Of a DNA stretch of 64,000 nucleotides, positions 27,185-60,545 are shown piece by piece (position 1 is the stretch's first letter; every line of letters begins with the position of its first letter). Location of the stretch: contig JBAZFB010000006.1 of the NCBI GenBank assembly GCA_041653595.1, positions 17,503 to 81,502 of the forward strand, read 5' to 3'. The position numbers and the translations under genes were made by a program. This DNA comes from Candidatus Omnitrophota bacterium. Its GTDB lineage: Bacteria > Omnitrophota > Gorgyraeia > Pluralincolimonadales > Pluralincolimonadaceae. The notes under the pieces are model-generated. The model saw nothing but the letters and a program-made list of their open reading frames with translations, was not told the origin of the DNA and searched no databases.

Positions 27185-27250
27185 CCATTATGTCATACCC
27201 ACAAATAATGTAAATTGGCGGATTCCGCTTTCTTTTGACCTTTTTCACCC
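27185..27250 (-). promoter_or_regulatory. promoter cassette copy A (TTTACA-16-CATAAT plus conserved A-tract block)
   Basis: Minus strand: TTTACA (27214..27209), 16 nt, CATAAT (27192..27187). Upstream block GTGAAAAAGGTCAAAAGAAAGCGGAAT. Confidence 0.5.
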
Positions 27251-27276
27251 CCTGCCAAAAACGGCAGGGACTGCGG

Positions 27277-28944
27277 CTACCCTAAGATCGCCTTCAGGTC
27301 TTCGTCGGGCGTGGTAATGGGTTTCACGCCGAAATTATTAACGAGGACTTTGAGGACGTTCGGCGACACGAATGCCGGGAGCGACGGGCCTATCCTTATG
27401 TTCTTCACGCCCAGCGAAAGGAGCGTAATGAGGATGCAAACCGCCTTCTGCTCATACCAGGAAAGGATGATGGATAACGGCAGGTCGTTCACGCCGCAGC
27501 CGAACGCGCCGGCAAGCGCCAGCGCTATCTTTATCGCCGAATATGAGTCGTTGCACTGGCCCAGGTCAAGCAGGCGCGGGATGCCGCCGATATCTCCGAA
27601 TTCAAGCGTGTTGAAGCGGAATTTCCCGCAGGCGAGCGTAAGTATCACGCAATCTTTGGGGACCTTTTCGGCGAACTCGGTGTAATAATTCCTGCCCGGC
27701 TTCGCGCCGTCGCATCCGCCTATGAGGAAGAAATGGCGTATCCTGTTCTCTTTTACGGATCCGACGATCCTGTCGGCGACGCCCAAAACCGCGTTGTGGC
27801 CGAAGCCGACGACTATTTCTTTTTCGATCTTATCCGCCTTGAGCCAGTCGAGCTCGAGCGCCTTCCTAATCACCGGCGAAAAGTCTTTATCGTCGAACCC
27901 CGGGATATGGGTGACTCCCGGCCACGCGACCATCCCGGTCGTGAATACCCGCGCCTTATAGGAGTCGCGCGGCTTCTGGATGCAGTTTGTCGTGAACAGG
28001 AACGCGGCAGGCACGCCGTCGAATTCCTTCTGCTGGTTCTGCCACGCGGTGCCGAAATGCCCGGCGAAGTGTTTATATTTATGGAAAGCGAGATATCCGT
28101 GCGCCGGCAGCATCTCGCCGTGCGTGTAAACATTTATCCCCTTCCCTTCGGTCTGGTCCAACAGCATTTCGAGGTCGAGGAGATCGTGGCCCGAGACGAT
28201 TATCGCAGGGCCCTTCTTCAGGCCCAATTTCACCCTCGTCGGGGACGGGTTGCCGAAATGTTCCGTATTCGCTTTATCGAGGAGCTCGAGGCATTTGAAA
28301 TTCACCTTCCCGAACTCCATATTCATCGCGAGGGCCTCTTCGACCGAGAGGTTGTCTTCGGCGAGTTTCGAGAGCGCCTTGTGGAAATACGCGTCCACTT
28401 CCTCGTCTTCAAGGCCGAGGACCGCGGCGTGGTCGGCGTAGGCCGCCATGCCTTTAAGGCCTAAAAGCAGGAGTTCCTGCAGGCTGCGCGAATCCTCATC
28501 CATCGCGGGCCATGAAAGGACGCCTACCTGCCTGCCCTGGTCGACCAGCCCTTCTATGCTGTTCGCGGGCTTCCAATCGGTCGCGTCTGGGAGGCGTGTC
28601 GCGAAATCCTTGTCGTATTTCTTCTTATATTCCCGAAGGAAGAGCCCTTTCATTTTTTCCTTGACCTCATACGCGCGCGTCAAAAATTCTTTGAGCCGCC
28701 CCGGGTCGAAATCAACGTTCGTTATCGTGGTAAAAAGCCCTTCTTTCAGGAAAAGGTCGGCCTCTTTATCCTTTATGCCGAGCTCGCGCGCCATATTCCC
28801 GTAAACGGCGATGCCCTTCATAGCGTATATAAGAAGGTCCTGGAGTGTCGCTGTGACCGGGTCTTTCCCGCAAACGCCCTGCATAGTGCATCCGGTACCC
28901 TGCGCGGTCTGCTCGCATTGCCTACAGAACATCTTTGTTTCCAT
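27277..28944 (-). CDS. hcp: hybrid-cluster protein / hydroxylamine reductase
   Basis: N-terminal CRQCEQTAQGTGCTMQGVCGK Cys cluster. 555 aa, typical Hcp length. Confidence 0.9.
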   Translation of the reverse strand: METKMFCRQCEQTAQGTGCTMQGVCGKDPVTATLQDLLIYAMKGIAVYGNMARELGIKDKEADLFLKEGLFTTITNVDFDPGRLKEFLTRAYEVKEKMKGLFLREYKKKYDKDFATRLPDATDWKPANSIEGLVDQGRQVGVLSWPAMDEDSRSLQELLLLGLKGMAAYADHAAVLGLEDEEVDAYFHKALSKLAEDNLSVEEALAMNMEFGKVNFKCLELLDKANTEHFGNPSPTRVKLGLKKGPAIIVSGHDLLDLEMLLDQTEGKGINVYTHGEMLPAHGYLAFHKYKHFAGHFGTAWQNQQKEFDGVPAAFLFTTNCIQKPRDSYKARVFTTGMVAWPGVTHIPGFDDKDFSPVIRKALELDWLKADKIEKEIVVGFGHNAVLGVADRIVGSVKENRIRHFFLIGGCDGAKPGRNYYTEFAEKVPKDCVILTLACGKFRFNTLEFGDIGGIPRLLDLGQCNDSYSAIKIALALAGAFGCGVNDLPLSIILSWYEQKAVCILITLLSLGVKNIRIGPSLPAFVSPNVLKVLVNNFGVKPITTPDEDLKAILG

Positions 28945-29344
28945 GGATCATCCCCTCAATTGTTATCGGTTTCAGTTGGATGTTTATGAACTGCTCTATT
29001 GTACCTAACCGCCTCCTTAAAAAACAAGATTTTTTATTGGGGCAAGCTTCCTTTTGAAGCACGCACTCGCTCAATTTGATGGGGCCCTGGAACACTTTGA
29101 CGACCTCTAGTAAGGATATCTTCTTCGGCCCGCGCGCCAGTTTGAACCCCCCGCCGGCGCCTTTCTGGGAAATAAGGAGCCCTTTAGCGTTCAGGGTCTG
29201 CAGTATCTTCCTGAGGAACGGCCGCGGTATCCTGAGGCTCCGGACAAGCTCCGGCACCGACGTCAGACCCTCTTGCTTCTTCGCCATGTAGCAGAGCGCC
29301 CTCACGGCGTAATCCGTATTCCTGTTTATCAGTCTTATGCTCAT
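28922..29344 (-). CDS. Rrf2-family transcriptional regulator (NsrR/IscR-like)
   Basis: N-terminal wHTH (DYAVRALCYMA). Three clustered Cys (CVLQKEACPNKKSC) for an Fe-S cluster. Directly upstream of hcp. Confidence 0.8.
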   Translation of the reverse strand: MSIRLINRNTDYAVRALCYMAKKQEGLTSVPELVRSLRIPRPFLRKILQTLNAKGLLISQKGAGGGFKLARGPKKISLLEVVKVFQGPIKLSECVLQKEACPNKKSCFLRRRLGTIEQFINIQLKPITIEGMIHGNKDVL

Positions 29345-29351
29345 GGCAGTA

Positions 29352-29372
29352 ATGATACCACAATGGTATCAT
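29352..29372 (-). promoter_or_regulatory. candidate Rrf2 operator, 9-3-9 perfect palindrome overlapping promoter spacer
   Basis: ATGATACCA-caa-TGGTATCAT. On the minus strand a TTGACA hexamer (29379..29374) sits immediately 5' of it. Confidence 0.45.
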
Positions 29373-29483
29373 TTGTCAAGTTAAATTTTGCAGCGCGCGG
29401 AACGCATGCTGCAAAATAATCCCGCGCCTGCGCAGAAAATCCCTAAGAGATTTTCAAGCGATTAGGCGCGGGGAAAAAATTAT

Positions 29484-29879
29484 TTAATTTTTCTCGAGCT
29501 TGCGGCTGAGGTAGCCCCCCGTGAGGCCGTCAATGCTAGCGGTGAGCTCCTCTATCCTGAGCTCTCTTTCCGTGTAAGCCGGGCTTTCCTTGTCGGTTAT
29601 CCTGATAAGTTGCTTCTGTAGCTTCTTCCTCTCGAAGTAAACGGTGTTGAGTGCCTCCATAATATCGTTCCTTAGCTCCACCATAAGCTTCGAGCGCGAG
29701 TCTATCGAGGTCTGGGCAGTATTATATACAAGGTCACCCAAATCCCATTTGGCCGTGAAATCCCAGCCGGAACTTGTGTCGTCCGGACCTACCCAGAAGT
29801 TCGTCCTACCGTTTGATGTGGCGGTCGATATCGTAGTATCTAGATCATTGTTATAACCTACGCTTACTTCGGGCATCAA
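29484..29879 (-). CDS. hypothetical protein (TTG start)
   Basis: 131 aa with a Thr/Ser-rich N-half and a coiled-coil-like C-half. No signal peptide. Confidence 0.3.
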   Translation of the reverse strand: MMPEVSVGYNNDLDTTISTATSNGRTNFWVGPDDTSSGWDFTAKWDLGDLVYNTAQTSIDSRSKLMVELRNDIMEALNTVYFERKKLQKQLIRITDKESPAYTERELRIEELTASIDGLTGGYLSRKLEKN

Positions 29880-29926
29880 GGCCCTTACGGCAGCCTGGTG
29901 CCTCCAGTTGGATATCTTATCGGGAT

Positions 29927-30199
29927 TTACCTCAGCGTATCTGATCGCGGCGCGCTGGGCTCGGGAATGGTTGGTTCGTTAGGGTCGGGGGTTTTGTTCT
30001 GGAGGGAAACTGTTTCAGTTGCAATTGGCTTCTTTTCTTCTTGCGCAAGCACGGTTTCTTCTTTTGAGGCCGGGATTTCTTGGTTAGCAACGGAAGCCGG
30101 CTTTAATGAAGTTTGCTTTGATTTTTCCCGCGCACAACCGCTTACCAACGGCACAGTCATACACAATACCAAAATAACACCTAGCTTATCATGACGCAT
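29927..30199 (-). CDS. small lipoprotein, low-complexity
   Basis: Lipobox LVSGC after a signal peptide. Pro/Glu/Thr-rich mature region. Confidence 0.4.
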   Translation of the reverse strand: MRHDKLGVILVLCMTVPLVSGCAREKSKQTSLKPASVANQEIPASKEETVLAQEEKKPIATETVSLQNKTPDPNEPTIPEPSAPRSDTLR

Positions 30200-30262
30200 T
30201 TGTCTGTGTCTCCTTTCTGCTATAATAGACGTAAAGCGGAAGGAAAAACTTTCAAAAATATT

Positions 30263-31168
30263 TTATCTCGCCCATCCTTCCCATTCGGCTTCAATTGGAT
30301 TAATTGGCCCTACTTCATCCACCTCCCCCGCTTCGAGGTTGCGCGAGCCGTCGGGTTGTATGTAGTAGTCAAAATCTCCACTAAGTGCGATTTTCCCGTA
30401 TTTCCCATCTGGAGTTTTGAAATAAAAACAATAACCCCCTGTTGATTCAGGGCAGACAGATTGGACGTAACCATCCTCAGGTGCTTGAGGCATCCATTCA
30501 AATTTGGCGAAAAGCTTATCCAGAGTACTTTCTCTCATTGGATATCCCGGGAAGCAAACAAATCCGCCCGGTTCTTTCATCGTATAAATCGCTCTACCTT
30601 CTTCGTCGTAAGACCTCGTTAGCCAGACGGTCTCTTCTTCAACCACAGGGAAGTACCATAATTTAATAAAGGACCAACCGCATTCCTTACCTTTGGATTC
30701 CTTATCTTCTATATCGGGAATATGTGCATTATGAACATACTCAAGCTTGGAAGGCGATCCTTTTTTTATAAGGTGAATTGTCAAATCATTTATGATTATC
30801 TTATCATCTGTCGGTTCCTTATAATCTGCAAGGACTATAGCATTTCCGTGATAGCCGTCTTTTTCTACCTTAATATCACAAAAAGTGGCGTCCGGCAATT
30901 TCCAAGAAAACGTACCACCATAAATTTTCTTTTCGAGTATTTTAGTCTCGGATTTGATCTCATCGTAAAACTTGCTTTTAACCACATCAGGATACGTTAC
31001 AGTCTCAAGTTCTGCCGTAAGGACCACTTCGTCCGTAATCAAGGTGCCATCCTGATCGATTATTTTACCGGCGATTTCGAATTTATCCAAAGATTGATAG
31101 CCATTACAAATGTTACTTAAACACAACAACATAACAACAAATAAAGATTTAGACATCAGTACCCCCAT
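30263..31168 (-). CDS. secreted hypothetical protein, co-transcribed partner of the large lipase-like protein
   Basis: Signal peptide (MGVLMSKSLFVVMLLCLSNICNG). 301 aa with 6 Cys. The start overlaps the upstream gene's stop by 13 nt. AT-rich composition. Confidence 0.5.
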   Translation of the reverse strand: MGVLMSKSLFVVMLLCLSNICNGYQSLDKFEIAGKIIDQDGTLITDEVVLTAELETVTYPDVVKSKFYDEIKSETKILEKKIYGGTFSWKLPDATFCDIKVEKDGYHGNAIVLADYKEPTDDKIIINDLTIHLIKKGSPSKLEYVHNAHIPDIEDKESKGKECGWSFIKLWYFPVVEEETVWLTRSYDEEGRAIYTMKEPGGFVCFPGYPMRESTLDKLFAKFEWMPQAPEDGYVQSVCPESTGGYCFYFKTPDGKYGKIALSGDFDYYIQPDGSRNLEAGEVDEVGPINPIEAEWEGWAR

Positions 31169-34100
31169 TTTTCTAAGTTTTTTGGATTTAAAAATCCTCC
31201 AAAATATTCTTGAACATCATAATAACACTCCGTTCCAAAACTTAAATGATCTCGAATCCCGAATGGCCGAATATTTCCCCTAAAATATGAACGACTCATA
31301 AAATTCGACAATTTTGACTCTAAATTCTGATTTCCCAATCCTCCCGACATACTCTTTTCATGTCTATAAAGACCTACATCACAAAAACCATACATTCGAT
31401 TTGAAGGGAGGACCTCATAATTATTGTCCAGCGGAACCGGCAATCCATAGTCCAGGTTACCTATTAAACCCGACCACCAAACTCCGATTAGGTTATCGGA
31501 AAAATTGCGTATTAATTTGTCTTTGCTATAATACAAATTATACACTTTTCCAGTAATATTATTTGCCGCAGCTGATACATACATATCTTTATAATAGTCA
31601 TTCTCCTGTCTAGTGGCGTAAGTGTTACCAGAAACGGCTACCTGAACTAAGAATACGTTATTTACGATCTTTCTCTTGTCCTGAATTGCAAGTAATTTCA
31701 AAGCATATGAAGTAAGATTGCCTCCTAATGAATGTGCAACCAGGTTTATTTTAGCATTTTTAAATTCATTTTTGGTATTTTCTATTACATCAGCCAAAAC
31801 CTGACCAGTCTGGAAAGAGTTTACCCATTGGTTGTCGAAAACCGTCTTGAAATTGTTACTTCCAATAAGCGGTATCGGATCGTATATCCCCTCTGCAGTA
31901 TCCCACGAGAACCCAATAAAACCGCCTCTATAGCCGCTCCTATATAAACGTTTATATACGGTATTGCTCCATGTCACAGCATCACTCTTTGGGGTCCAGG
32001 CGCCATGGATAAACATAAATACTTTGCTCGGATCTTGTATAAACATATTTTTATTTTCAACATTAATTGTCCTATATCTAAGCTTGCCATCACTCCCGTC
32101 GGAAGGAGCGCCCCTGACATCCACAAATCTATACATATCCCTTATGCTTTTTAAAGTTACATAAGCTTCGTCCAATATCGCTTCTGTCTTATTTTCGCCT
32201 AGCTCGACTATCAGAGATAACTCAAGCACCCCTTGCTCGATGCCTTCGAAGATGGCACGGAAGTTGCCATTATCATCGAAATATTTTGACTCGAGTTCTT
32301 TCTTGTCACCTGAAGCCAGATTTATTATGATTGGTTTGGTGAATTGGGCGATGGAGCTGTTGATATCCTTTAGATATGTGAATGAGCCAATTTTCTTAAT
32401 ATCCTTTACCCTTTCAAATATCTTAATCCTGCCCGAGCCTTCCGCCTTTAGATAGAACTTTACATTTTGGTTGGTGGTCCATTCCTTAATGTTGGGTATT
32501 GTTAGATTTATCGGCATAAAATCCTCAAGGTCTCTTATACCGTTTATATTCCCGTCATAGCCATCGTTCCCGTTGCTGTTTACCGCGCAGGCATCATCCG
32601 AATGTATATTTGACTCATCATAATCGTCGTCATTATTGACCCAATTTACGCACCCCGGCGCGACCTGTTCGACGGCATTGTCATCGCCGCCCAGAAAACC
32701 GTCGTTATTGGAGTCAACGAGGATGTCGCCGCTCAGAGTTTGCATATTATAACAAGAAAAAAACTTATTGCAGTAGCCTGGGCTATAGCCAAACCCGTCG
32801 CCGTATGAGGGCGCCTCCATAGTTATATCGATATCTGTGTCAGGATTAGGATTCTCCATAATAATATAGGCCGATCTATTTAAATTGTATGTCCTGTCTG
32901 CCGGGTCAAAGAGGGGATTTAGCGGGTATTTGCCGTTTATTTTGTATTTTGAAGGATCTAAGGGTTGTTCATAATATAGAAAGGGGCCGAATGTCTCAAT
33001 AAAATCACAGTTCTTGAATATGACTATAAAAGGATTATCTTTTACCGGCGGGGAATGAAGGGTCGTGACCGTCATGCCCCATAACCTTCCGGGACTCTCT
33101 TTATATTCCCAATTAATATCGGAACAACTATCGAAAGGATTGCTAAGCCAGGGATAATTTGAGACGGTACAAGACGGAAGGCCGTACGAGGGAACGTAAT
33201 AACAAAAACCCATAGAATCTACCGAGCTTAGCATTATCCAGCCAGAGCTAAAAGGCGGTCCATAAGGGAAATACGTCCGCATGTTAGACTTTATATCCGA
33301 CCAATTCGCGAAAGGAGACTCGGAGAAGAGATCGCGATTGAACATCTGGTTATAATTGATCTCAAGCTTTATCTGTTTTTCCTGGCCAAAGTAATTGATA
33401 TTCTTCCTGCGATGCCTCCCATTCTCAATATAATCAACATAAATTGGCGGAAACACATAATTTTCACCCGTCGACTGCATCTTCACAAACAACTGATAAT
33501 AATAAAATGTTATCTTCTCTTCTTTAACATGCCCTGCGTCATCGGTTACCTGCGCCGTAAGGATGTTTTTGCCGGAGTGCGTTACCGGATCGACCTTCAT
33601 AATGATATACTCGGGAGAATCGGCTACAATATTCCTGCGGCGCGCCTCTCCCGGGGAAAGAAGCGTCGGACCCGTAAAAGTAAAACTGGCTGGGCTTATC
33701 GTGCACTCCCGGCCGCCTATAGTTATGCTTTTTACATGGGCGAACTCATTAAACCTGCCGCCTATCTGAAGGGCATTTTCGGTTATAATTTGGTCTTTAT
33801 AAGGAGAGGAAAAAGACAGCATCGGCTCTTCTTTATTATCAAGAACCGGCATTTGGACAGGATCAGTTCGAGGATTTGAGTTATTGGTACTACCGGCTCC
33901 GCCGGTAACGCCGCCTGTTATCTGTTGGACAACGGAAATGACTTGAGGATCATCGTTCTTGATCCTATAACCCGAAGTTGACGGCGTTGAGACAGGCGTA
34001 ACAGGCGAACTCTTAGATGCGATAAGCGCCGGCGTAAAACCCTCTGGCGCGATGTTAGTATCTATTGACAAAACTTTTTTAGTTTCTGTCTCATGCGATC

Positions 34101-34491
34101 CCGTCGCTTCGGGAAGCGGTCCGGCCTCTTCCTCTAATTCCTCTTTACGATATAGCGTGTAAGAATAGAACTTCCTTTTGCCTGTCGAATCAAAGATCTC
34201 AAATATGAAGACATTTTTTCCTACCGATAACGGCAAACTAGATATCATGAACTTGGATCCGCTAAATTTGACCGGCTTGCCGTCTATCCGTAAGGATAAG
34301 ATCTTCGATTCGGTCAGTATATGGCCGCTGATATCCACCGTTTCGGTATCTATTATAGAGAAAGCTGGCGGAAGTATCGAATCCAACGTTGGTAAGCGAT
34401 AATTAATGCCCTTGTGGGCATACAAAGGCGTAAAAAATAGCGTCGATGACGCTAACGCGATAAATAAAACCGCGGATAATTTCTTGTGCAT
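31156..34491 (-). CDS. large secreted protein with C-terminal lipase/esterase-type alpha/beta-hydrolase domain
   Basis: 1111 aa with a signal peptide (MHKKLSAVLFIALASSTLFFTPLYA). D/N-rich segment DSNNDGFLGGDDN...NNDDDYDESNIHSDD...SNGNDGYDGNINGIRD. C-terminal FMFIHGAW ... VAHSLGGN, a nucleophile-elbow A-H-S-L-G. Visibly AT-rich relative to the flanks. Confidence 0.6.
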   Translation of the reverse strand: MHKKLSAVLFIALASSTLFFTPLYAHKGINYRLPTLDSILPPAFSIIDTETVDISGHILTESKILSLRIDGKPVKFSGSKFMISSLPLSVGKNVFIFEIFDSTGKRKFYSYTLYRKEELEEEAGPLPEATGSHETETKKVLSIDTNIAPEGFTPALIASKSSPVTPVSTPSTSGYRIKNDDPQVISVVQQITGGVTGGAGSTNNSNPRTDPVQMPVLDNKEEPMLSFSSPYKDQIITENALQIGGRFNEFAHVKSITIGGRECTISPASFTFTGPTLLSPGEARRRNIVADSPEYIIMKVDPVTHSGKNILTAQVTDDAGHVKEEKITFYYYQLFVKMQSTGENYVFPPIYVDYIENGRHRRKNINYFGQEKQIKLEINYNQMFNRDLFSESPFANWSDIKSNMRTYFPYGPPFSSGWIMLSSVDSMGFCYYVPSYGLPSCTVSNYPWLSNPFDSCSDINWEYKESPGRLWGMTVTTLHSPPVKDNPFIVIFKNCDFIETFGPFLYYEQPLDPSKYKINGKYPLNPLFDPADRTYNLNRSAYIIMENPNPDTDIDITMEAPSYGDGFGYSPGYCNKFFSCYNMQTLSGDILVDSNNDGFLGGDDNAVEQVAPGCVNWVNNDDDYDESNIHSDDACAVNSNGNDGYDGNINGIRDLEDFMPINLTIPNIKEWTTNQNVKFYLKAEGSGRIKIFERVKDIKKIGSFTYLKDINSSIAQFTKPIIINLASGDKKELESKYFDDNGNFRAIFEGIEQGVLELSLIVELGENKTEAILDEAYVTLKSIRDMYRFVDVRGAPSDGSDGKLRYRTINVENKNMFIQDPSKVFMFIHGAWTPKSDAVTWSNTVYKRLYRSGYRGGFIGFSWDTAEGIYDPIPLIGSNNFKTVFDNQWVNSFQTGQVLADVIENTKNEFKNAKINLVAHSLGGNLTSYALKLLAIQDKRKIVNNVFLVQVAVSGNTYATRQENDYYKDMYVSAAANNITGKVYNLYYSKDKLIRNFSDNLIGVWWSGLIGNLDYGLPVPLDNNYEVLPSNRMYGFCDVGLYRHEKSMSGGLGNQNLESKLSNFMSRSYFRGNIRPFGIRDHLSFGTECYYDVQEYFGGFLNPKNLEKWGY

Positions 34492-34597
34492 AATTTATTA
34501 CTCTACCTCCAATCAAAGCAAGAATGAGTAATTAATATACAATATTCCACCTTCCTTGTCTAGTAAATTAAATTGCTTATTTAGGGTAATGTGGGAT

Positions 34598-34680
34598 AAA
34601 TTCAGGGACGTTTCATAAAGGGACAGTTCATTTTATAGGACGATAAGTGAAGTGCCCCCGAATAAAGCGTCCCTGAATTT
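34598..34680. repeat. perfect 13-bp inverted repeat with 57-nt spacer at island/operon boundary
   Basis: AAATTCAGGGACG (34598..34610) and CGTCCCTGAATTT (34668..34680). Lies between the start of the large AT-rich gene and the stop of the downstream higher-GC gene. May act as a long-loop terminator. Confidence 0.45.
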
Positions 34681-34683
34681 TAA

Positions 34684-35316: not shown

Positions 35317-35390
35317 TTTGCTACCTCCTGTATTTATGGATAGATTATAACTCCGGCAGGACATTACTTCAATAAGATTAACGTCCCCGA

Positions 35391-39023: not shown

Positions 39024-39274
39024 TTATTTCCTTTACTGAGCGCGGATTTTACCGAAACGCCGGGTATCAGCCCGAGCCTTCCGGTCAGCGCGCCGACATC
39101 GTCGGTCGTCGCGTCGACTATGAGCGTTATTATCGAACAATTCCTCTCTTTGTATGGAATGCCCATTCTCCCCTGGATGATATTCCCGAACTCGGACAGG
39201 ATCTTGTTGACCTCGCCCGCCTGCCTGTTCCTGTCCGTCACTATTATCCCCATAAATCCCAGTCTCTTGTTCAT
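39020..39274 (-). CDS. small ACT-fold protein, TM1266-like putative iron-only hydrogenase system regulator
   Basis: 84 aa with a strong SD AGGAGG. Located between hydA and hydF, which is the characteristic position of this family. Confidence 0.5.
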   Translation of the reverse strand: MNKRLGFMGIIVTDRNRQAGEVNKILSEFGNIIQGRMGIPYKERNCSIITLIVDATTDDVGALTGRLGLIPGVSVKSALSKGNK

Positions 39275-39292
39275 TTTCCCTCCTAATTAGAA

Positions 39293-41140: not shown

Positions 41141-41141
41141 A

Positions 41142-47835: not shown

Positions 47836-47848
47836 GGAATTATGGTGA

Positions 47849-48835: not shown

Positions 48836-48849
48836 TCTAGGTCCCTCCT

Positions 48850-49761: not shown

Positions 49762-49765
49762 CTTC

Positions 49766-50719: not shown

Positions 50720-50749
50720 TTTATTGGTCTCCTCCTCTTAAGGTCATGC

Positions 50750-52159: not shown

Positions 52160-52245
52160 ATGGGCCTGCCGTTGCCTCCATCGGTATAGTAGATATTATA
52201 CGTATATACCGCCGTAAATCAAGATGGCACTTGTGATAACAATAT

Positions 52246-54245: not shown

Positions 54246-55306
54246 TTATTTCCGGACAATTCTTTCTGTTGTTTGAATATGTCCCCGATCAGGCCGCGGG
54301 CATCGTAGGAGATCTTCCAGCCGGGATAATGGGACTTGAATTTTGAGAGCCCGGATATCCACCATATGTGGTCCCCTATCCTGTTCCGGTCGACGTAATC
54401 GTAAGGCATCTTCCTGCCGGAGACCTCCTCGCAAAGCCCTATCGCCTCAAGGACAGAAACGCTGGTGCTCCTGCCCCCGCCCATATTATAGACCTCTCCG
54501 GAGCGGGGTTTTAGATAGAATTGGTGGAAGGCCTCGACGAGGTCGCGGGAATGGATGTTATCGCGCACCTGTTTTCCCTTATAGCCGATGATAGTATACT
54601 TCTTCCCGGAGACGCAGCATTTCACCAGGTAGGACAGGAAACCGTGAAGCTCGGCCCCGGAATGATACGGTCCTGTTATGCAGCCGCACCTGAATGCCGC
54701 GGTCTTGAGGCCGAAATACCTGCCGTATTCCTGGACGAGTATATCGGCGGCGGCCTTTGAGGCGCCGAAGAGGCTGTGGAGGCAGTTATCTATGCTGAAG
54801 GATTCGTCTATACCGCCGAAAAATTTGTGGTCCTCGGGCAGCTCGAACCTCTTCCCGAGCTCCACCAGGGGAAGCCTGTTGGGATTGTCACCGTAGACCT
54901 TGTTCGTCGAAAGGAAGATGAAGACCGCCTTTGGGGCGCGCAGCCTGAAATTTTCCAGGAGAGCCTGCGTCCCCCCGGCGTTTATATCGAAATCCGTGGA
55001 AGGTTCCCTGGCCGCCCAGTCATGCGAGGGCTGGGCCGCTGCGTGGATTATAAGGTCGAAATCGTATTTTGCGAAAAGGCCTTCGACAGCGGCCTTATCC
55101 CGTATATCGAAGTCATGATGGACATAATCCGGGGCGGTCTTGAGGAGAAGGTCTTTGTTCCATTCCACCGAACCCGCGTCGCCGAAGAATTTCTTCCTCA
55201 TGTTGTTGTCGACGCCGATGACGCCGAAACCCTTGTGAGAAAAAAATCTGACACACTCAGAACCTACGAGACCGGCAGAACCGGTCACAAGGACTAATTT
55301 CTTCAT
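54242..55306 (-). CDS. NAD-dependent sugar-nucleotide epimerase (extended SDR, CDP-paratose 2-epimerase-like)
   Basis: [10 protein letters not shown] Rossmann motif and an SDR-type YxxxK equivalent (SKAAAD) region. Confidence 0.75.
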
Positions 55307-55338
55307 GTGTCATATTATAGCAGAATTTACGAAATACG

Positions 55339-55527
55339 CTATTCTGTTATTATGATCGCCGTCACGGGGCATTCATCCGCTGCCTGCTTGCAGGCGGCCT
55401 CGACGGCTTTAGGGACGGCGGCGACATAAACCACCGCCTTCTCTCCCTCCATTTTATAGACATCCGGACAGGTCTGCACGCACAATGTGCAGCCTATGCA
55501 GATATCCGGGTCGATTTTCACCTTCAT
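55339..55527 (-). CDS. small [4Fe-4S] ferredoxin
   Basis: CIGCTLCVQTCP ... C ... CP. Start taken at MKVKI. Confidence 0.6.
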   Translation of the reverse strand: MKVKIDPDICIGCTLCVQTCPDVYKMEGEKAVVYVAAVPKAVEAACKQAADECPVTAIIITE

Positions 55528-55563
55528 CCGATCTTCCCCTTCTTCTTTAAGCATTCTATTATC

Positions 55564-55932
55564 TTATCCGATAGCGGCTTCCACCGCGTTGATCACATCC
55601 AGGGGCTTAAACGGCTTCTTGAGGCATTTCTTGATACCGAATATGCTCAGGAGGAACGCGTATTCCTCCTTAAAGAACGACGACATCGCGATTATCGGGG
55701 TCTTTTCCAATTCCGGGAGCCGCCTTATCTCCTCGGCCAGCTGGAACCCGCTCCTCCCTGGCATCTTAAGATCGAGTATTATGAGATCCGGTTTTGTGCG
55801 GGACGCTATTTCCACCGCGGCGACGGAATCGTTGACGGGGATTATCTCATAGCCGCTCATAGACATCGTCTCGTTCAGCTCCTCGAGAAATTCCGTGTCG
55901 TCATCGACTATCATCACTTTTTTACCGGCCAT
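55564..55932 (-). CDS. single-domain response regulator (CheY-like receiver)
   Basis: KKVMIVDDD...DLIILDLKMPG...K receiver motifs. Start reassigned to MAGKK (55932) with an AAAGAG/GAGG SD, because the promoter B -10 lies at 55964..55959. Confidence 0.65.
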   Translation of the reverse strand: MAGKKVMIVDDDTEFLEELNETMSMSGYEIIPVNDSVAAVEIASRTKPDLIILDLKMPGRSGFQLAEEIRRLPELEKTPIIAMSSFFKEEYAFLLSIFGIKKCLKKPFKPLDVINAVEAAIG

Positions 55933-55954
55933 CTCTTTATGCCTCGTTTGATAC

Positions 55955-56030
55955 ATAGATATTATCTTATCGCGGTAAAAGTGTAAACAGGCTGTTTCCC
56001 CTTTTTATTGATATTTTTCTACTGAGGGCT
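55955..56030 (-). promoter_or_regulatory. promoter cassette copy B
   Basis: Minus strand: TTTACA (55987..55982), 17 nt, TAATAT (55964..55959). Upstream block GTAGAAAAATATCAATAAAAAGGGGAAA. Confidence 0.5.
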
Positions 56031-56047
56031 TACGGGTCAAAACGCGG

Positions 56048-56804
56048 TTACCGCTTCCGTTTAGCGGTTTTGGCCCGCTTGCCGGGGCTTTTGCCCGGCC
56101 TTACCTTCTTCCTGTATTCCGTCGGGGTGTATCCCGCTAACTTCTTGAACTGCCTTATGAACGACTCCGTGTTTTCGTAACCCATCCTCTCGGAGATCTG
56201 GTTTACATTGTAGTCGCCCTTTTTCAGGAGCTCTTTGGCCTTGCCTATCTTCAACTCCAATTTATAGTCGCTGAAACCTTTCTTTATGTTCTCTTTGAAT
56301 ATCCTGCTAAGGTATTTCGGGCTAAGGCAGACCGCGCCAGCGGCCTCGTTCAAGGTTATCTTCTTGTACCAGTTCCTTTCCATGAACCGTTTGACCTTCT
56401 CTATCTTCCCCTTTAAACCTTGTTCGTTCACTCCGCCTTCGCCGCGCCTGGCCTCCAGCAGGCCTTCTACCGTCTCTTTGAGCCTTGCGATGCCTACCGG
56501 CTTTTCCATATAATCGTCCGCGCGGGCCTTCAGGGCTTCGATCGCCATCTTTTGAACTATGCCCGGTCAGGATAATGATCTTTAGGTGCGGGTCCGTTTT
56601 TTTGATCTCAGCCAGGACGTCGAGGCCGTTCACTCCCGGCATCTTGACATCCAGGATCACCAGGCCGATCTCGTTCGCCCTGCCCAATAATTTCAGGGCC
56701 GCTTCCCCGTCAGGGACCTCGACCACATCGTATCCTTCCAGGAAGTCCCTGAGCTCGCTCCTCAGCCCTTCATCGTCATCCACTATCAAGATCTTATCAA
56801 CCAT
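56048..56804 (-). pseudogene. REC-AraC response regulator interrupted by a frameshift (or sequencing error) near 56546..56552
   Basis: The N-terminal receiver ORF (56322..56804) ends its real sequence at IIILTGHSSKD. The C-terminal ORF (56048..56548) begins MAIEALKARADDYMEKP, the expected continuation of a receiver domain, then an AraC HTH. The two frames are offset by 1 nt at a TTTT run. Confidence 0.55.
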
Positions 56805-56826
56805 GGGCTTCCTCTCTTTCCTTTTT

Positions 56827-57687
56827 TTACGCGTATTCTTTTAAGATGCCTGTTATGTCGATATCATCTATCTTCTCTTCGACCAAAGGCGGACGCTTAT
56901 TTAATCCGCTCTTTTCCTCGTAGCTCGCCTTCTCGGCCTTATAAATTATCCCTATGGGGATCCTGTCGCCCCATTCCGAAGCCTTTTGGAGCGCGGCAAC
57001 ATAATTTCCGGGATCATATGCGGGATCGTCGTTTGCTTTGTATATCCTCTTTGAATACCATTCGTAAGTGTTCTTCTTGTTGAACGAAACGCACGGCTGC
57101 AGGACCTCGACGAGAGAGAACCCCTTGTGTTCTATCCCTTCGAGAATCAGCCACGAGAGATGCTCCATATCTGCGGAATAACCCCGCGCCACAAAACCCG
57201 CGCCGAGGACTATCGCCATCTCCAGCGCGCGGATAGGCTCTGAGATGACGCCTTGCGTCTGGACTTTCGTTACATACCCCTCATCGGTCGAGGGCGAGGC
57301 CTGGCCTTTCGTCAGCGCGTAGATCTGGTTATTATGGACTATCACGGTAATATCCGTATTGCGCCTGATGTTGTGTATGAAATGGTTGCCGCCTTCACCG
57401 TAACAGTCGCCGTCGCCTGTGGTGACGAGGACGGTCAATTCGCGGTTGGCGATCTTGACCGCGGACGCGTATGAGAGAGACCTGCCGTGGAGCCCGTTTA
57501 TGCAGTTGCATTTTATATAGTGGGGCAATTTCGCGGCCTGGCCTATCCCCGAGGCGATGACTATATCCTTGGGCTTCCGCCCCAGTTTTACGAGCGCCGC
57601 TTTCAATGCGTTGAGGATGCCGAAGTCCCCGCACCCAGGGCACCATGCTATCGGATCGTTGCTTATGAAATCTTTAACGTCTGCCAT
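56827..57687 (-). CDS. 2-oxoacid:ferredoxin oxidoreductase beta subunit (TPP-binding)
   Basis: CPGCGDFGIL and GDGDCYGEGGNHF motifs. Confidence 0.85.
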   Translation of the reverse strand: MADVKDFISNDPIAWCPGCGDFGILNALKAALVKLGRKPKDIVIASGIGQAAKLPHYIKCNCINGLHGRSLSYASAVKIANRELTVLVTTGDGDCYGEGGNHFIHNIRRNTDITVIVHNNQIYALTKGQASPSTDEGYVTKVQTQGVISEPIRALEMAIVLGAGFVARGYSADMEHLSWLILEGIEHKGFSLVEVLQPCVSFNKKNTYEWYSKRIYKANDDPAYDPGNYVAALQKASEWGDRIPIGIIYKAEKASYEEKSGLNKRPPLVEEKIDDIDITGILKEYA

Positions 57688-59401
57688 TGTTCACCGCCTC
57701 GGAGGCCTTTTCTTTCAGGAAGTCCGCGTTAAAAGGCCTGCCGTCATATTTTAATATGGAACCGTCGACTTCGATGCCGGTCGAGCGCCGGATGAGTTTC
57801 GCCAGTTGGGCCCCGGCATTGTTTTCAACGGTAACGGCCTTTTTTGCCCGCTTCAATAATCCGGCTATATGATCCGAGGGGAACGGCCATACCTGGGATA
57901 GGTGTATAAAACCCAGCTTCTTCCCTTGCGTCGCTTCGCAGGCCTCCTTCATAACCCCGTAGGTCGAACCAAAACCTACCAAAACCATGTCGGCGCCGCT
58001 CAGGTTATAAGCCGTCGGCTCCTCGACCTCGCGCGAGAGAAGCGCCATCTTCTTATAGAACCGCTTATCGACCATCGACATCCTGATCTTCCCGTCTTCG
58101 GTGATATGCCCTTCTTCGGTATGCTCGTCGCTATCGGCGTAAATTACATCCTCGATCCACGAGGGCACGGCCATAGGCGATACGCCTGTTTCGGTGAGCT
58201 GATAACGCTTATACCCGGTGACCTTCTTCGAATCCTCTTTTGATATTATGTGGCGCTCTACCTTCGCCTTATCCATATCGAACGGGTCAATGTCGCGGGA
58301 GGAATCGGCCAGATGCTGGTCTGTCATTATCAGGACCGGTATCTGGTACTTTTCCGCGAGATTAAATGCTTTTACCGTAAGGTAGAACGCCTCTTCGACC
58401 GTCCCGGGGGCAAATACCGCCCTCGCGAATTCGCCGTGGCCCGCATGTATAAGAAAATCCAGGTCAGCCTGTTCGGTGCGGGTCGGGAATCCTGTCGCCG
58501 GGGCCGGCCTCTGAGCATCCACCGCGACGATAGGCGTCTCGAGCATCCCGGCAAGGCTTAACCCCTCGACCATCAGGGCGAATCCGCCGCCGGATGTGGC
58601 GCACATCGACCGAACGCCCGCAAAAGACGCCCCTATTATCATATTTATCGCGGCGATCTCATCCTCGGCCTGTTCGACGATGATATTGAAATCCTTCGCG
58701 TAGCGGCTCAGGTTCTCCATTATGCTCGTCGAGGGCGACATCGGATACGCGGAATAAAATTTGCATCCTCCCCTGATCGCGCCCAGGGTTATCGCCTCAT
58801 TGCCGTTCATCAAAAGGTTTCCGGCCGCCGCGCCTTCCTTGACGGCGAAGGCGTCGGATCGGAAATATTTCGCCGAGAAATCATATCCCAGTTTCGCCGC
58901 GGCTATATTTATCTTTATGACATCCGCGGGCTTATCCGCGAATATCTCCTTTAACGCCTCCTCCACGAGACGGAAGCTGATCTTTGTGATCCCGGCCGCC
59001 ACGCCGCACGCCGCGGAATTCGCGAAGAGCTCGCTTCCTCCTGCTTTTTTGGCCATATCATAAAAAGGCGCGTCGAAAAAACCCGGGCCTGTTTCCTCGG
59101 TGCCGAATTTCTGCCTGTCGGTTATCATAATGCCTTTTTCCGCCATATCCGGCTTATGTATGCTTATGCTTCCCTTATCCAGGCAGACGGTGATATCGCT
59201 TTTCCCTTTTAGCGTAAAGACGGGCCTCTCCGAGACCCGCAACTGCGAAAAATTATTCCCGCCGCGGATGCGCGACATAAAGTCCTGGTTCATGAATATA
59301 TGCAGCCCGGCTTTTTTGAAGACTTTCGCCAGCGCCGTGCTTATAGCCTGCATCCCCTGGCCCGCTTCTCCGGAGATCTTTATCGTCAATTCATCCCGCA
59401 A
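57674..59401 (-). CDS. 2-oxoacid:ferredoxin oxidoreductase fused gamma-alpha subunit
   Basis: N-terminal gamma-like domain (ISGEAGQGMQ) followed by the alpha domain. 575 aa. Overlaps the beta gene. Confidence 0.85.
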   Translation of the reverse strand: MRDELTIKISGEAGQGMQAISTALAKVFKKAGLHIFMNQDFMSRIRGGNNFSQLRVSERPVFTLKGKSDITVCLDKGSISIHKPDMAEKGIMITDRQKFGTEETGPGFFDAPFYDMAKKAGGSELFANSAACGVAAGITKISFRLVEEALKEIFADKPADVIKINIAAAKLGYDFSAKYFRSDAFAVKEGAAAGNLLMNGNEAITLGAIRGGCKFYSAYPMSPSTSIMENLSRYAKDFNIIVEQAEDEIAAINMIIGASFAGVRSMCATSGGGFALMVEGLSLAGMLETPIVAVDAQRPAPATGFPTRTEQADLDFLIHAGHGEFARAVFAPGTVEEAFYLTVKAFNLAEKYQIPVLIMTDQHLADSSRDIDPFDMDKAKVERHIISKEDSKKVTGYKRYQLTETGVSPMAVPSWIEDVIYADSDEHTEEGHITEDGKIRMSMVDKRFYKKMALLSREVEEPTAYNLSGADMVLVGFGSTYGVMKEACEATQGKKLGFIHLSQVWPFPSDHIAGLLKRAKKAVTVENNAGAQLAKLIRRSTGIEVDGSILKYDGRPFNADFLKEKASEAVNNGRR

Positions 59402-59417
59402 TGGACCTTCTCCTTAG

Positions 59418-60041
59418 TCAGAATTTTGCGGCCGTTATCCTGGCGGCCTGCTGCGCTTCGTTTATCTTCTGTTTCTGCAGCTCGGGCCCCATATCCATAG
59501 GCTGGGCGACGACAAACGTGATATCCGTGATGCCGCATAACCCGAATATTCTACGGAGATAGGGCTCCTGGAAATCGGCGGCGCGCATCTCCTTGGAGCT
59601 GTAATCGCCTCCCCTGCTGGCGACAACAACCATCTTTTTGTTCTTCACCAGCCCCTCGGCGCCGGTCGCCGTATAACGGAAGAGGTACTTCGGCTGGACT
59701 ATGACATCGATATAATGCTTGAGCGTGTACGGGACGCTGAAATTCCACATCGGCGTGCTTATCAGGTAGCCGTCCGCCGACATAAACCTCTCGATATGCC
59801 TGACTATCTCTTCCCAGGCCTCCTTCAGGTCGCCGGTGAGGTCCTTGCCCGACAAAAGGACATATTTACCGTCTACCCTCTTTAATGTAAGCGAGGGAAG
59901 GTCCTCCTTCGAAAGGTCCAGTTCCTCCACCGTCCAGTCGGGATGGCCTGTCTTGAAGGCCTCAAGGAAGGCGCCGGATACCGCCAATGTCCTGGATTCT
60001 TCCCCTCTCGGCGTGGCTATTATGTGCAGTAATTTTTTCAT
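59418..60041 (-). CDS. azoR: FMN-dependent NADH-azoreductase / flavodoxin-like quinone reductase
   Basis: MKKLLHIIATPRGEESRT N-terminus typical of AzoR/ACP phosphodiesterase-like flavoproteins. Confidence 0.75.
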   Translation of the reverse strand: MKKLLHIIATPRGEESRTLAVSGAFLEAFKTGHPDWTVEELDLSKEDLPSLTLKRVDGKYVLLSGKDLTGDLKEAWEEIVRHIERFMSADGYLISTPMWNFSVPYTLKHYIDVIVQPKYLFRYTATGAEGLVKNKKMVVVASRGGDYSSKEMRAADFQEPYLRRIFGLCGITDITFVVAQPMDMGPELQKQKINEAQQAARITAAKF

Positions 60042-60058
60042 TTTGCTCCTTTCCGGTA

Positions 60059-60472
60059 TTATTTTTTTATGACCCTGAATGAGCTGTAACTATAATCGCT
60101 TTTTTTGCCGCCCAGGAATACCTGCCTCAAACTCCATGTATAGACCCGGCCTTCACTGAATGTAGCAGCCGGGATTTTTGCGGGACTGGTGGAGATATTG
60201 TGTTTCATTATAAACCCTGTGACCGTGGTGTCGTAACCGTTATACAACCTTAACTCGTAATGGTCGGTCTCGGCAATATCGGTCGTCTCCCACCGGAAGA
60301 CAAGGATATCTTTTCCCTCAAGGTTGATGTCGTTTGTCGTCGGATAAAGGAGCGTCGGAGGGACGGACCGGCCGGATCTTAAAAAAAATTTGGGCATTGC
60401 ATAGGAATACGGCGAAAAGCAAGCGAGGCATAACAGCAGAGCTAAACTCGTAAATAACCTCATGGGCCTCAT
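60059..60472 (-). CDS. small secreted hypothetical protein, probably leaderless mRNA
   Basis: Signal peptide (MRPMRLFTSLALLLCLACFSPYSYA). The promoter C -10 ends 7 nt upstream of the ATG. Confidence 0.45.
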   Translation of the reverse strand: MRPMRLFTSLALLLCLACFSPYSYAMPKFFLRSGRSVPPTLLYPTTNDINLEGKDILVFRWETTDIAETDHYELRLYNGYDTTVTGFIMKHNISTSPAKIPAATFSEGRVYTWSLRQVFLGGKKSDYSYSSFRVIKK

Positions 60473-60474
60473 AA

Positions 60475-60545
60475 AATAATTATAAGGGATGGCGGAGATA
60501 TGTAAATTGCCGCATTCCGCTTTTTATTGACTTTTTTCTACCTTA
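60475..60545 (-). promoter_or_regulatory. promoter cassette copy C
   Basis: Minus strand: TTTACA (60506..60501), 16 nt, TATAAT (60484..60479). Upstream block GTAGAAAAAAGTCAATAAAAAGCGGAAT. Confidence 0.55.

What the first reader, a model, noticed from the sequence alone, without database searches (positions are those of the whole stretch)
27185..60545. Triplicated ~65-nt promoter cassette with conserved A-tract block in front of three unrelated small genes
Three minus-strand upstream regions (27185..27250, 55955..56030, 60475..60545) share the same architecture and near-identical sequence. Each has an A-tract block GT(A/G)GAAAAA(A/T/G)(G/A)TCAA(T/A)A(A/G)AAAG(C/G)GGAA, then about 10 nt, then TTTACA, a 16-17 nt spacer, then CATAAT/TAATAT/TATAAT. 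In copies A and C even the spacer is conserved (GCGGAAT(C/G)CG(C/G)CAATTTACAT). The driven genes are a Met/Cys-rich membrane protein, a stand-alone CheY-like receiver, and a small secreted protein. The last is apparently leaderless, with the -10 ending 7 nt before its ATG. A weaker fourth relative (AACAATAAAAGG) precedes the GNAT-like gene (16030..16080). This looks like a dispersed strong-promoter module with UP element, or a shared regulator binding site defining a small regulon.
Basis: seen in the sequence. Interest (0 to 1): 0.7.

Follow-up and report, generated by a model that had tools for sequence, protein, structure and literature searches.

The report
Conserved response-regulator operator plus promoter
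The three look-alike upstream regions are real. They are copies of a 27-base control site fused to an ordinary promoter, conserved across uncultivated Omnitrophota and some neighbouring phyla, and most likely bound by a two-component response regulator encoded next to one copy.

Summary
Three minus-strand copies of GTRGAAAAAnnTCAAnAnAAAGnGGAA lie exactly 8 nt before TTTACA, followed by 16-17 nt and a TATAAT-like box (0.01 copies expected by chance). The proposed fourth copy is not related (-5 bits).

The window comes from a Candidatus Omnitrophota MAG. The same block, at the same spacing to a -10 box, occurs at more than 50 promoters in about 35 MAGs labelled Omnitrophota, Elusimicrobia, Ratteibacteria and Auribacterota.

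It is not a general UP element. None occurs in 86 kb of Omnitrophota DNA chosen through an unrelated gene, nor in 575 kb of unrelated DNA.

It is tightly linked to one conserved response regulator (receiver plus AraC-type DNA-binding domain). That regulator lies directly upstream of copy B, in 7 of about 29 motif-selected loci, and all 7 regulator-selected loci carry 1-4 blocks.

Targets recur:
- an orthologous stand-alone CheY-like receiver, often followed by desulfoferrodoxin, rubrerythrin, ferredoxin or 2-oxoacid:ferredoxin oxidoreductase genes
- small exported proteins
- the regulator's own operon

Best reading: an activator site at about -69 to -36 for this regulator, defining a two-component regulon that may respond to redox or oxygen stress. 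Binding is inferred, not shown. It is a new member of a known kind and of moderate interest.

The parts
27223..27249 (-). Copy A operator block GGTGAAAAAGGTCAAAAGAAAGCGGAA
   Evidence: Pattern match. PWM score 46.6 bits. Member of repeat family D3.
27187..27214 (-). Copy A core promoter: TTTACA, 16 nt, CATAAT, with TG before the -10 box. CCAAT lies just upstream at 27214-27218.
   Evidence: Promoter scan, 10 of 12 matches, TG present. Sequence read.
26855..27157 (-). Target of copy A: a 100-aa Met-rich small membrane protein. An AGGAGGG ribosome-binding site lies at 27166-27172. A terminator-like hairpin follows at 26807-26826.
   Evidence: ORF. No Pfam or NCBIfam hit. A 37%-identical orthologue in L201 is also preceded by a block. 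Terminator-like site and a separate downstream promoter-like site.
55996..56022 (-). Copy B operator block GTAGAAAAATATCAATAAAAAGGGGAA
   Evidence: PWM score 49.8 bits.
55959..55987 (-). Copy B core promoter: TTTACA, 17 nt, TAATAT
   Evidence: Promoter scan, 9 of 12 matches. Sequence read.
55564..55932 (-). Target of copy B: a 122-aa stand-alone CheY-like receiver. The likely start is the ATG at 55932 (MAGKK...).
   Evidence: Pfam Response_reg only. Orthologues at 37-62% identity sit behind the block in 10 other loci.
55339..55554 (-). 4Fe-4S ferredoxin gene immediately downstream of the receiver; probably in the same operon
   Evidence: Pfam Fer4_13. The same gene order is seen in relatives.
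60515..60541 (-). Copy C operator block GTAGAAAAAAGTCAATAAAAAGCGGAA, identical to the cross-genome consensus
   Evidence: PWM score 56.1 bits.
60479..60506 (-). Copy C core promoter: TTTACA, 16 nt, TATAAT. The -10 box ends 6 nt before the ATG at 60472.
   Evidence: Promoter scan, 11 of 12 matches. Sequence read.
60059..60472 (-). Target of copy C: a 137-aa protein with a signal-peptide-like N-terminus. It is the first gene of a tightly packed co-directional run.
   Evidence: ORF. No Pfam or NCBIfam hit.
56827..60041 (-). Genes between the copy C target and the regulator: a Flavodoxin_2/FMN-reductase gene (59418-60041) and the 2-oxoacid:ferredoxin oxidoreductase subunits (57674-59401 and 56827-57687). 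They are probably co-transcribed from copy C.
   Evidence: Pfam. Gaps of 25 nt or less, or overlaps. The same order is seen in the 89%-identical relative. Operon status is inferred.
56048..56804 (-). Candidate cognate regulator: a receiver + AraC-type HTH (YesN-like) response regulator. In this assembly it is split into two ORFs by a 2-nt deletion near 56545.
   Evidence: ORFs. Junction sequence. Intact orthologues at 58-89% identity.

Best explanation
Each copy is a composite, activator-dependent promoter. A conserved, asymmetric 27-nt operator (consensus GTRGAAAAAAGTCAAnAAAAAGnGGAA, about -69 to -43) continues through a weaker CCAAT patch into the -35 position. It is joined at fixed spacing to a sigma-70-type -35/-10 pair.

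The most likely binding protein is the conserved two-component response regulator with a receiver domain and an AraC-type double helix-turn-helix, encoded directly upstream of copy B. After phosphorylation by a sensor kinase, it would occupy the block and recruit RNA polymerase to promoters whose -35 box is often poor. The kinase is adjacent to the regulator in most relatives but not in this window.

The regulon would include:
- a stand-alone CheY-like receiver, possibly a feedback element or phosphate sink
- redox or oxygen-defence genes in the same operons
- several small exported or membrane proteins
- the regulator's own operon (autoregulation)

Shown: the sequence architecture, its conservation, its restricted distribution, its linkage to the regulator gene, and the recurrence of targets. 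Inferred: binding by this protein, activation rather than repression, operon extents, and the physiological signal.
For: **Architecture**
- Three window copies against 0.01 expected by chance.
- Of 56 copies scoring at least 28 bits in about 35 MAG loci, all have a -10 match of at least 4/6 at a spacer of 15-18 nt, and 38 of 56 have at least 5/6. At a control offset only 15 of 56 reach 4/6.
- The -35 matches TTGACA at 3/6 or fewer in 26 of 56 copies, as expected for activator-dependent promoters.

**Conservation**
- A genome-contig scan found the same block with its GTA prefix and -10 spacing in MAGs labelled Omnitrophota, Elusimicrobia, Ratteibacteria and Auribacterota. One is a 62% GC genome where the A-rich block stands out.

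**Linkage to the regulator**
- Orthologues of the REC-AraC regulator (HTH region 48-67% identical) lie inside 7 of about 29 motif-selected 8-kb loci. Random placement in a genome of a few Mb would give roughly 0.3% per locus.
- Conversely, all 7 regulator-selected loci with DNA (L127, L201, L202, L204-L207) carry 1-4 co-directional intergenic blocks within 10 kb. That is 15 copies of at least 29 bits in about 138 kb when the window is counted as an eighth regulator-bearing region (its copies B and C, about 20 kb).

**Specificity**
- No hits of 20 bits or more in 575 kb of unrelated loci.
- None in 86 kb of Omnitrophota DNA selected through phosphoglucose isomerase.
- No weaker copies in the window, and only 1 hit in 2.9 million viral contigs.

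**Recurrent targets**
- 18 of 55 downstream genes encode two-component proteins, including the window's CheY-like receiver and 10 orthologues of it.
- The window's Met-rich protein has a block-preceded orthologue in L201.
- Block-driven operons contain desulfoferrodoxin, rubrerythrin, DJ-1, PNPOx, DoxX, ferredoxin and POR genes.

**Autoregulation pattern**
- Blocks lie upstream of the regulator's own gene or operon in L204, L201 and L055, and by inference at window copy C.

**Regulator conservation**
- The two predicted recognition helices (LSPKYLSRIFK and ESFIRQFKK) are the most invariant segments among 34 orthologues. This fits an invariant DNA target.
Against: - No binding or transcription data exist; the regulator assignment rests on linkage.
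- More distant orthologues on short contigs (L122-L126, 42-56% identity) have no block nearby, although their recognition helices are conserved.
- In the window the regulator gene is interrupted by a 2-nt deletion. Either the assembly is wrong or the system is impaired here.
- One block (L202, position 10749) lies in a 36-nt gap between the regulator and kinase genes, with no room for a promoter.
- The A-tracts are also compatible with an RNA polymerase alpha-subunit contact.
- The taxon labels of MAGs may be unreliable.
- The PGI-selected control genomes were not shown to possess the system.
Confidence: 0.6

Rival explanations
1. The block is bound by a different, unidentified transcription factor. 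The REC-AraC gene would then be a regulon member, not the regulator.
For: Linkage alone cannot separate regulator from target. Blocks do lie upstream of the regulator's own operon. Other DNA-binding proteins occur among the targets: an OmpR-type regulator in L084 and an HTH_17-like protein in L038.
Against: No other DNA-binding protein recurs across the linked loci. The REC-AraC gene is the only DNA-binding gene seen repeatedly near the block. The site's asymmetry, its length and its position abutting the -35 box fit AraC-type activators.
Confidence: 0.2
2. The block is an UP-like element or intrinsically curved DNA read directly by RNA polymerase (alpha C-terminal domains or sigma). It would be a lineage-specific strong-promoter module with no dedicated regulator.
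For: Two A5-6 tracts about 11-12 bp apart lie upstream of -35 at fixed spacing. The -35 boxes are often weak.
Against: - Invariant G/C-containing patches (GTRG, GTCA, GnGGAA) are not expected for minor-groove A-tract reading.
- The proximal UP subsite position is G/C-rich.
- There are no copies in 86 kb of PGI-selected Omnitrophota DNA and only 3 in the 64-kb window, which has roughly 15-18 intergenic promoter regions.
- Targets are signalling, stress and exported-protein genes, not housekeeping genes.
- Copies cluster around one regulator gene.
Confidence: 0.12
3. The copies are remnants of a dispersed repeat or mobile promoter cassette (MITE/REP-like) with no regulatory meaning.
For: In two Ruminiclostridium MAGs, a block-like 27-mer starts a multicopy hairpin-rich repeat of about 200 nt inserted after terminators.
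Against: - In the window, similarity is confined to about 40-65 nt, and no flanking inverted repeats or target duplications were seen in the sequence read.
- The block sits at orthologous promoters across phyla with a fixed spacing to -10.
- It is essentially absent from viral contigs.
Confidence: 0.03

Closest known systems
Class II AraC/XylS-family activator sites (araI1-I2 at pBAD; XylS at Pm; RhaS; MelR). Comparison from general knowledge.
   Same: A non-palindromic site spanning roughly -70 to -35 and abutting or overlapping the -35 hexamer. Short conserved patches are separated by A/T-rich tracts at about one helical turn. The -35 is weak and the -10 is good. The regulator has an AraC-type double HTH (Pfam HTH_18/HTH_AraC).
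   Different: The sequence is unrelated to araI or the XylS boxes. The regulator's N-terminal domain is a phospho-receiver, not a ligand-binding or dimerisation domain. A two-half-site reading (GnRGAA-N3/4-GYCAAT twice, 21 bp apart) is only suggestive here.
MarA/SoxS/Rob marbox regulons (from general knowledge)
   Same: An asymmetric site read by one AraC-type domain through two adjacent major grooves, orientation-dependent relative to the promoter, defining a stress regulon.
   Different: Marboxes are 20 bp and highly degenerate. This block is 27 nt or longer and nearly invariant across phyla. MarA has no receiver domain.
YesN-type (receiver + AraC HTH) response regulators of Firmicutes and the AraC-type output domains of Bacteroides hybrid two-component systems
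   Same: Same domain architecture. JGI names orthologues 'response regulator YesN'. The best solved-structure match is a 'hybrid two-component system protein'.
   Different: No NCBIfam equivalog reaches its cutoff. The family here is specific to Omnitrophota and neighbouring phyla. It is linked to redox or oxygen-defence genes and stand-alone receivers, not to sugar-utilisation loci.
rrnB P1-type UP element (from general knowledge)
   Same: A-tracts upstream of -35 at fixed distance.
   Different: The block lies further upstream (about -43 to -69), contains invariant G/C positions, lacks an A/T-rich proximal subsite, and is restricted to a small gene set.

Membership tests
Sigma-70-type promoter | -35-like and -10-like hexamers separated by 16-18 nt | tested here: met
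   The three copies score 10/12, 9/12 and 11/12. All 56 cross-genome copies have a -10 match of at least 4/6 at a 15-18 nt spacer.
Sigma-70-type promoter | Transcription starts 6-8 nt downstream of the -10 box | not testable with these tools
   No transcript data are available. This would also settle the leaderless reading of copy C.
UP element (RNA polymerase alpha-CTD site) | A/T-rich sequence at about -38 to -59 fitting the proximal and distal subsite consensus | tested here: not met
   The block spans about -43 to -69. Positions -46 to -38 read GGAAtcagCC. The conserved non-A positions are GTRG, GTCA and GnGGAA.
UP element (RNA polymerase alpha-CTD site) | Occurs at strong or housekeeping promoters generally, not at one regulon | tested here: not met
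   No copies in 86 kb of PGI-selected Omnitrophota loci. Only 3 in the 64-kb window. Targets are signalling, stress and exported-protein genes.
AraC/XylS-family activator binding site | Asymmetric site of 17 bp or more with conserved patches separated by A/T-rich spacers, oriented relative to the promoter | tested here: met
   Logos from 33 pattern-matched and 28 non-pattern copies. Every copy mapped to a gene is co-directional with it.
AraC/XylS-family activator binding site | Site adjacent to or overlapping the -35 hexamer | tested here: met
   A fixed 8-nt gap from GGAA to the -35 position. The CCAAT patch runs into the -35, whose first T is present in 32 of 33 copies.
AraC/XylS-family activator binding site | A cognate AraC-family regulator is present and linked | tested here: met
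   A REC+HTH_18/HTH_AraC gene lies directly upstream of copy B. Orthologues occur in 7 of about 29 motif-selected loci, and blocks occur in 7 of 7 regulator-selected loci.
AraC/XylS-family activator binding site | Direct binding of the regulator to the site | not testable with these tools
   Needs EMSA, footprinting or DAP-seq.
Autoregulated two-component regulon | An operator lies upstream of the regulator's own operon, and a sensor kinase is adjacent | tested here: met
   Operators: L204 (block at 831 before the regulator gene at 1034), L201 (block at 9353 before DoxX and the regulator) and L055. A kinase follows the regulator in L201, L202, L204, L205 and L206. No adjacent kinase was found in the window.
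MITE/REP-type dispersed repeat | Repeat unit with its own termini or inverted repeats, independent of gene context | tested here: not met
   Similarity is confined to the block plus promoter. Copies sit at orthologous promoters in many genomes.
Known RNA family (Rfam) | Match to a covariance model at the gathering score | tested here: not met
   No matches in the whole window.

The most novel reading that the evidence does not exclude
The block is not a transcription-factor site. It would be a lineage-specific promoter element read directly by the RNA polymerase of Omnitrophota and allied candidate phyla, through alpha or a sigma extension. It would define a separate promoter class that replaces a poor -35 box.
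Probability: 0.1. Interest if true: 0.7.

Novelty: new member of a known kind. Interest (0 to 1): 0.42.

Why it matters
Omnitrophota and their neighbours are uncultivated, and I found no description of this motif or of any regulon for them in the paper library.

This is a 27-nt cis-element that is nearly invariant across several candidate phyla. It comes with a specific candidate regulator and a recurring target set: a CheY-like receiver, superoxide reductase, rubrerythrin, ferredoxin and oxidoreductase genes, and small exported proteins.

That gives a directly testable regulatory circuit. It also gives a practical handle for annotating these MAGs, for choosing promoters for heterologous expression, and for reading metatranscriptomes. 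Mechanistically it would be an ordinary activator-dependent promoter, so the gain is coverage of unexplored lineages, not a new principle.

Tried and rejected
- **Rfam.** A scan of the whole window found nothing. There are no tRNA genes.
- **Literature.** Searches for the sequence itself, for Omnitrophota promoters, for YesN/AraC regulator sites and for an Omnitrophica oxidative-stress two-component system found nothing relevant.
- **Fourth copy at 16030-16080.** Rejected at -5.2 bits.
- **Promoter on the opposite strand.** The reverse complement contains TTGACT, but no -10 follows in any copy (read). Rejected.
- **ECF-type promoter (GGAAC-N16/17-CGT).** Nothing is conserved 16-17 nt after GGAAT in the three copies. 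Rejected by reading.
- **IHF (WATCAANNNNTTR) and Fis consensus.** Compared from memory; poor fits. Not pursued.
- **Plus-strand terminator-like hairpin GGCGGATTCCGC in copy A.** It is not conserved in copies B or C. Rejected as a feature of the family.
- **Source contig look-up.** An exact-protein look-up found nothing for the azoreductase-like protein. The source was identified instead through the 100%-identical P0008.
- **Closest relative.** The three contigs of the 89%-identical regulator (P0001) gave gene tables but no DNA, so they could not be scanned.
- **Covariation of recognition helices with motif variants.** Uninformative, because the helices are conserved even in orthologues with no nearby block.
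- **Viral contigs.** One non-promoter hit only.


Full report

Yes. Reading the three regions on the minus strand shows the same layout. There is a 27-nt A-rich block, then exactly 8 nt, then TTTACA, then 16, 17 or 16 nt, then CATAAT, TAATAT or TATAAT.

The degenerate 24-mer GAAAAANNTCAANARAAAGSGGAA matches only at 27223-27246, 55996-56019 and 60515-60538, all on the minus strand. Shuffled sequence gives 0.01 matches. An unsupervised repeat search recovers the same three sites as a 39-nt family at 74-87% identity. A MAFFT alignment shows that similarity ends a few bases upstream of the block and at the -10 box. A consensus promoter scan calls all three -35/-10 pairs, at 10, 9 and 11 of 12 matches.

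The downstream genes are as described:
- a 100-aa Met-rich membrane protein
- a 122-aa receiver-only protein
- a 137-aa protein with a signal-peptide-like N-terminus

The 'fourth relative' near 16050 is not related. Its best score against a matrix built from the family is -5.2 bits, against 46-56 bits for the true copies, and nothing else in the window exceeds 8 bits.

**2. Where does the window come from, and is the block found elsewhere?**

The C-terminal ORF upstream of copy B is 100% identical to a protein annotated in a Candidatus Omnitrophota MAG, on a 92.5-kb contig.

About two thirds of the hits were chance or coding matches in AT-rich genomes, such as a conserved Pelagibacter coding segment.

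About 30 loci form a distinct class. In these the block carries the same GTA/GTG prefix, GT before TCAA, a weak CCAAT patch, and a TATAAT-like box at the same distance. Their records are labelled Omnitrophota (about 14), Elusimicrobia, Ratteibacteria, Auribacterota or simply 'bacterium'. One is a 62% GC genome (L109) in which the A-rich block is intact.

A position matrix then found further, slightly degenerate copies in the same loci, up to five in 8 kb.

Across the 56 copies scoring at least 28 bits:
- All have a -10 match of at least 4/6 at a spacer of 15-18 nt from the fixed -35 position, and 38 have at least 5/6.
- At a control offset only 15 of 56 reach 4/6.
- The -35 itself matches TTGACA at 3/6 or fewer in 26 of 56.

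So this is a promoter-attached element with a good -10 and an often poor -35. That is the usual signature of activator dependence.

**3. What is next to it?**

Directly upstream of copy B lie two overlapping minus-strand ORFs (56322-56804 and 56048-56548). Compared with intact orthologues (…HSSKDVAIEALK…), the window lacks 2 nt at about 56545.

The family is large and well conserved. There are 697 hits at E of 1e-30 or better. The top 120 are 58-89% identical, and the named ones are mostly from Omnitrophota.

**4. Linkage, tested in both directions**

- *Motif-selected loci.* A tblastn search with the regulator's DNA-binding region finds orthologues (48-67% identical) inside 7 of about 29 motif-selected 8-kb loci: L007, L036, L055, L071, L088, L110, and the edge of L109. 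With one such gene in a genome of a few Mb, random placement would give about 0.3% per locus.
- *Regulator-selected loci.* These were retrieved by exact-protein look-up or back-translation. Every locus that returned DNA carries the block within 10 kb, co-directional and intergenic: L201 has three, L202 two plus one weak, L204 four, L205 two, L206 one, L207 one and L127 one weak.
- *Controls.* 575 kb of unrelated loci gave no hit of 20 bits or more. Four Omnitrophota loci chosen through an unlinked housekeeping gene, phosphoglucose isomerase, total 86 kb and gave none, with a best score of 12 bits inside a coding region. A scan of 2.9 million viral contigs found one non-promoter match.

The block is therefore neither a general promoter feature of these genomes nor a mobile element. 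The proportion of motif-selected loci that include the regulator suggests roughly 10-30 sites per genome. This is a rough inference.

**5. What does it drive?**

Of 55 first downstream genes, 18 encode two-component proteins. These include the window's CheY-like receiver and 10 orthologues of it (37-62% identical). Five belong to one family of small secreted proteins, and many others have signal-peptide or lipoprotein-like N-termini.

The window's Met-rich membrane protein has a 37%-identical orthologue in L201 that is also preceded by the block.

Gene tables of the regulator-selected loci show what follows the receiver gene in the same direction: desulfoferrodoxin, rubrerythrin, DJ-1/PfpI, ferredoxin, 2-oxoacid:ferredoxin oxidoreductase and rubredoxin. 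Separate blocks lie before PNPOx, DoxX, DUF4136 and DUF1540 genes.

Blocks also precede the regulator's own gene or operon in L204, L201 and L055.

In the window:
- Copy C heads a tight co-directional run: the exported protein, a Flavodoxin_2 reductase, the oxidoreductase alpha and beta subunits, then the regulator.
- Copy B heads the receiver and a ferredoxin.
- Copy A drives the Met-rich protein, which is followed by a terminator-like hairpin and a separate promoter-like site.

In most relatives a sensor kinase (dCache, PAS or GAF with HisKA and HATPase domains) follows the regulator. None is adjacent in the window.

**6. Most likely mechanism**

The block is the operator of this response regulator. 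It is asymmetric. It has short G/C-containing patches (GTRG, GTCA, GnGGAA, then CCAAT) spaced about one helical turn apart and separated by A-tracts. It spans roughly -69 to -36 and runs into the -35 hexamer.

From general knowledge of AraC, XylS and MarA, this is the geometry of class II AraC-family activator sites, where each domain reads two adjacent major grooves across an A/T-rich minor groove.

Three further observations bear on this:
- A reading as two 21-bp-spaced units (GTAGAA-AAAA-GTCAAT and GCGGAA-TCC-GCCAAT) is possible but rests on weak conservation of the second unit.
- In L056 an inverted extra copy of only the first unit (GTAGAAAAAAGTCAAT) suggests that unit is separable.
- The regulator's two predicted recognition helices are the most invariant parts of 34 aligned orthologues. 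This fits a nearly invariant target.

The phosphorylated regulator would recruit polymerase to promoters with weak -35 boxes. The receiver-only protein produced first could act as a feedback element. The target set suggests a response to oxygen or redox stress in an anaerobe; the window also encodes an [FeFe]-hydrogenase with its maturases and a hybrid-cluster protein. Binding, the direction of regulation, the signal and the operon limits are all inferences.

**7. Rivals**

- *A different transcription factor* remains possible, since linkage cannot separate a regulator from its target. No other DNA-binding gene recurs, however.
- *A direct RNA polymerase (UP-like) element* fits the A-tracts and the weak -35 boxes. 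It does not fit the invariant G/C positions, the G/C-rich proximal region, the restricted distribution or the clustering around one regulator gene.
- *A dispersed repeat* is excluded for these genomes.

**8. Comparison with known systems, and novelty**

By domain architecture the regulator is a YesN-type response regulator. No curated equivalog reaches its cutoff, and the nearest solved structure is a hybrid two-component protein. The site works like araI, XylS-box or marbox sites but shares no sequence with them. I found no description of this motif or regulon.

It is a new member of a known kind. Its unusual features are near-invariance across several candidate phyla and its usefulness for annotating uncultivated lineages. 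I rate interest as moderate (0.42).

Noticed in passing
window 56540-56550 (minus strand): The REC-AraC regulator gene is split by a 2-nt deletion relative to intact orthologues (…HSSKD|VAIEALK…; DNA aaagatg^gcgatc). The deposited MAG annotates only the 166-aa C-terminal ORF, which starts at an ATG created at the junction. This could be an assembly error, a pseudogene, or a receiver-less and possibly constitutive DNA-binding protein.
   Followed up: partly
L008, L014, L024, L046, L051, L089, L092 (Ruminiclostridium MAG Lapin-030 bin45); L049, L073 (Lapin-002 bin51): A 27-mer almost identical to the block (GTAGAAAAAGGTCAATATAAAGCGGAA) forms the 5' edge of a multicopy, hairpin-rich repeat of about 200 nt inserted just after terminator hairpins. 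No -35/-10 pair follows it. Whether it is related to the Omnitrophota element or is a coincidence is unclear.
   Followed up: partly
L202 10749-10788: A block copy fills the 36-nt gap between the regulator's stop codon and the kinase's start codon, leaving no room for a promoter at the usual spacing. It may be an autoregulatory or roadblock site, or the kinase start may be miscalled.
   Followed up: no
L056 (minus strand, just upstream of the block at locus position 1758): A head-to-head inverted pair, TTGACTTTTTTCTAC-CG-GTAGAAAAAAGTCAA. Only the first 16 nt of the block are duplicated on the other strand, which suggests GTAGAAAAAAGTCAAT is a separable half-site.
   Followed up: partly
window 60463-60484: The -10 box of copy C ends 6 nt before the first ATG (60472), so that mRNA could be leaderless. 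A second in-frame ATG at 60463 is preceded by GAGG with only 3 nt of spacing.
   Followed up: no
window 4000-16000 and 30000-34500: Two low-GC stretches (0.40-0.44, against 0.52-0.56 elsewhere). The first lies just below the Wzz and sugar-transferase genes at 16151-19805, which sit in sequence of higher GC (about 0.50-0.52). The second encodes a 1111-aa protein with a DUF900-type alpha/beta-hydrolase region, and neighbouring ORFs have no Pfam hits. Both may be horizontally acquired.
   Followed up: no
window 27217-27229 (plus strand): In copy A only, the palindrome GGCGGATTCCGC followed by a T-rich run scores as a weak plus-strand terminator. It is not conserved in copies B or C.
   Followed up: yes
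window 26431-26670 and 20978-26426; L204 10060-11786: A MazE/AbrB-type small DNA-binding protein followed by OEP and membrane-fusion genes recurs near the regulon in two distant Omnitrophota. In the window these are followed by MacB-type ABC and MFS efflux genes; L204 ends within the membrane-fusion gene. The cluster has its own promoter-like site at 26714-26742 and no block.
   Followed up: no
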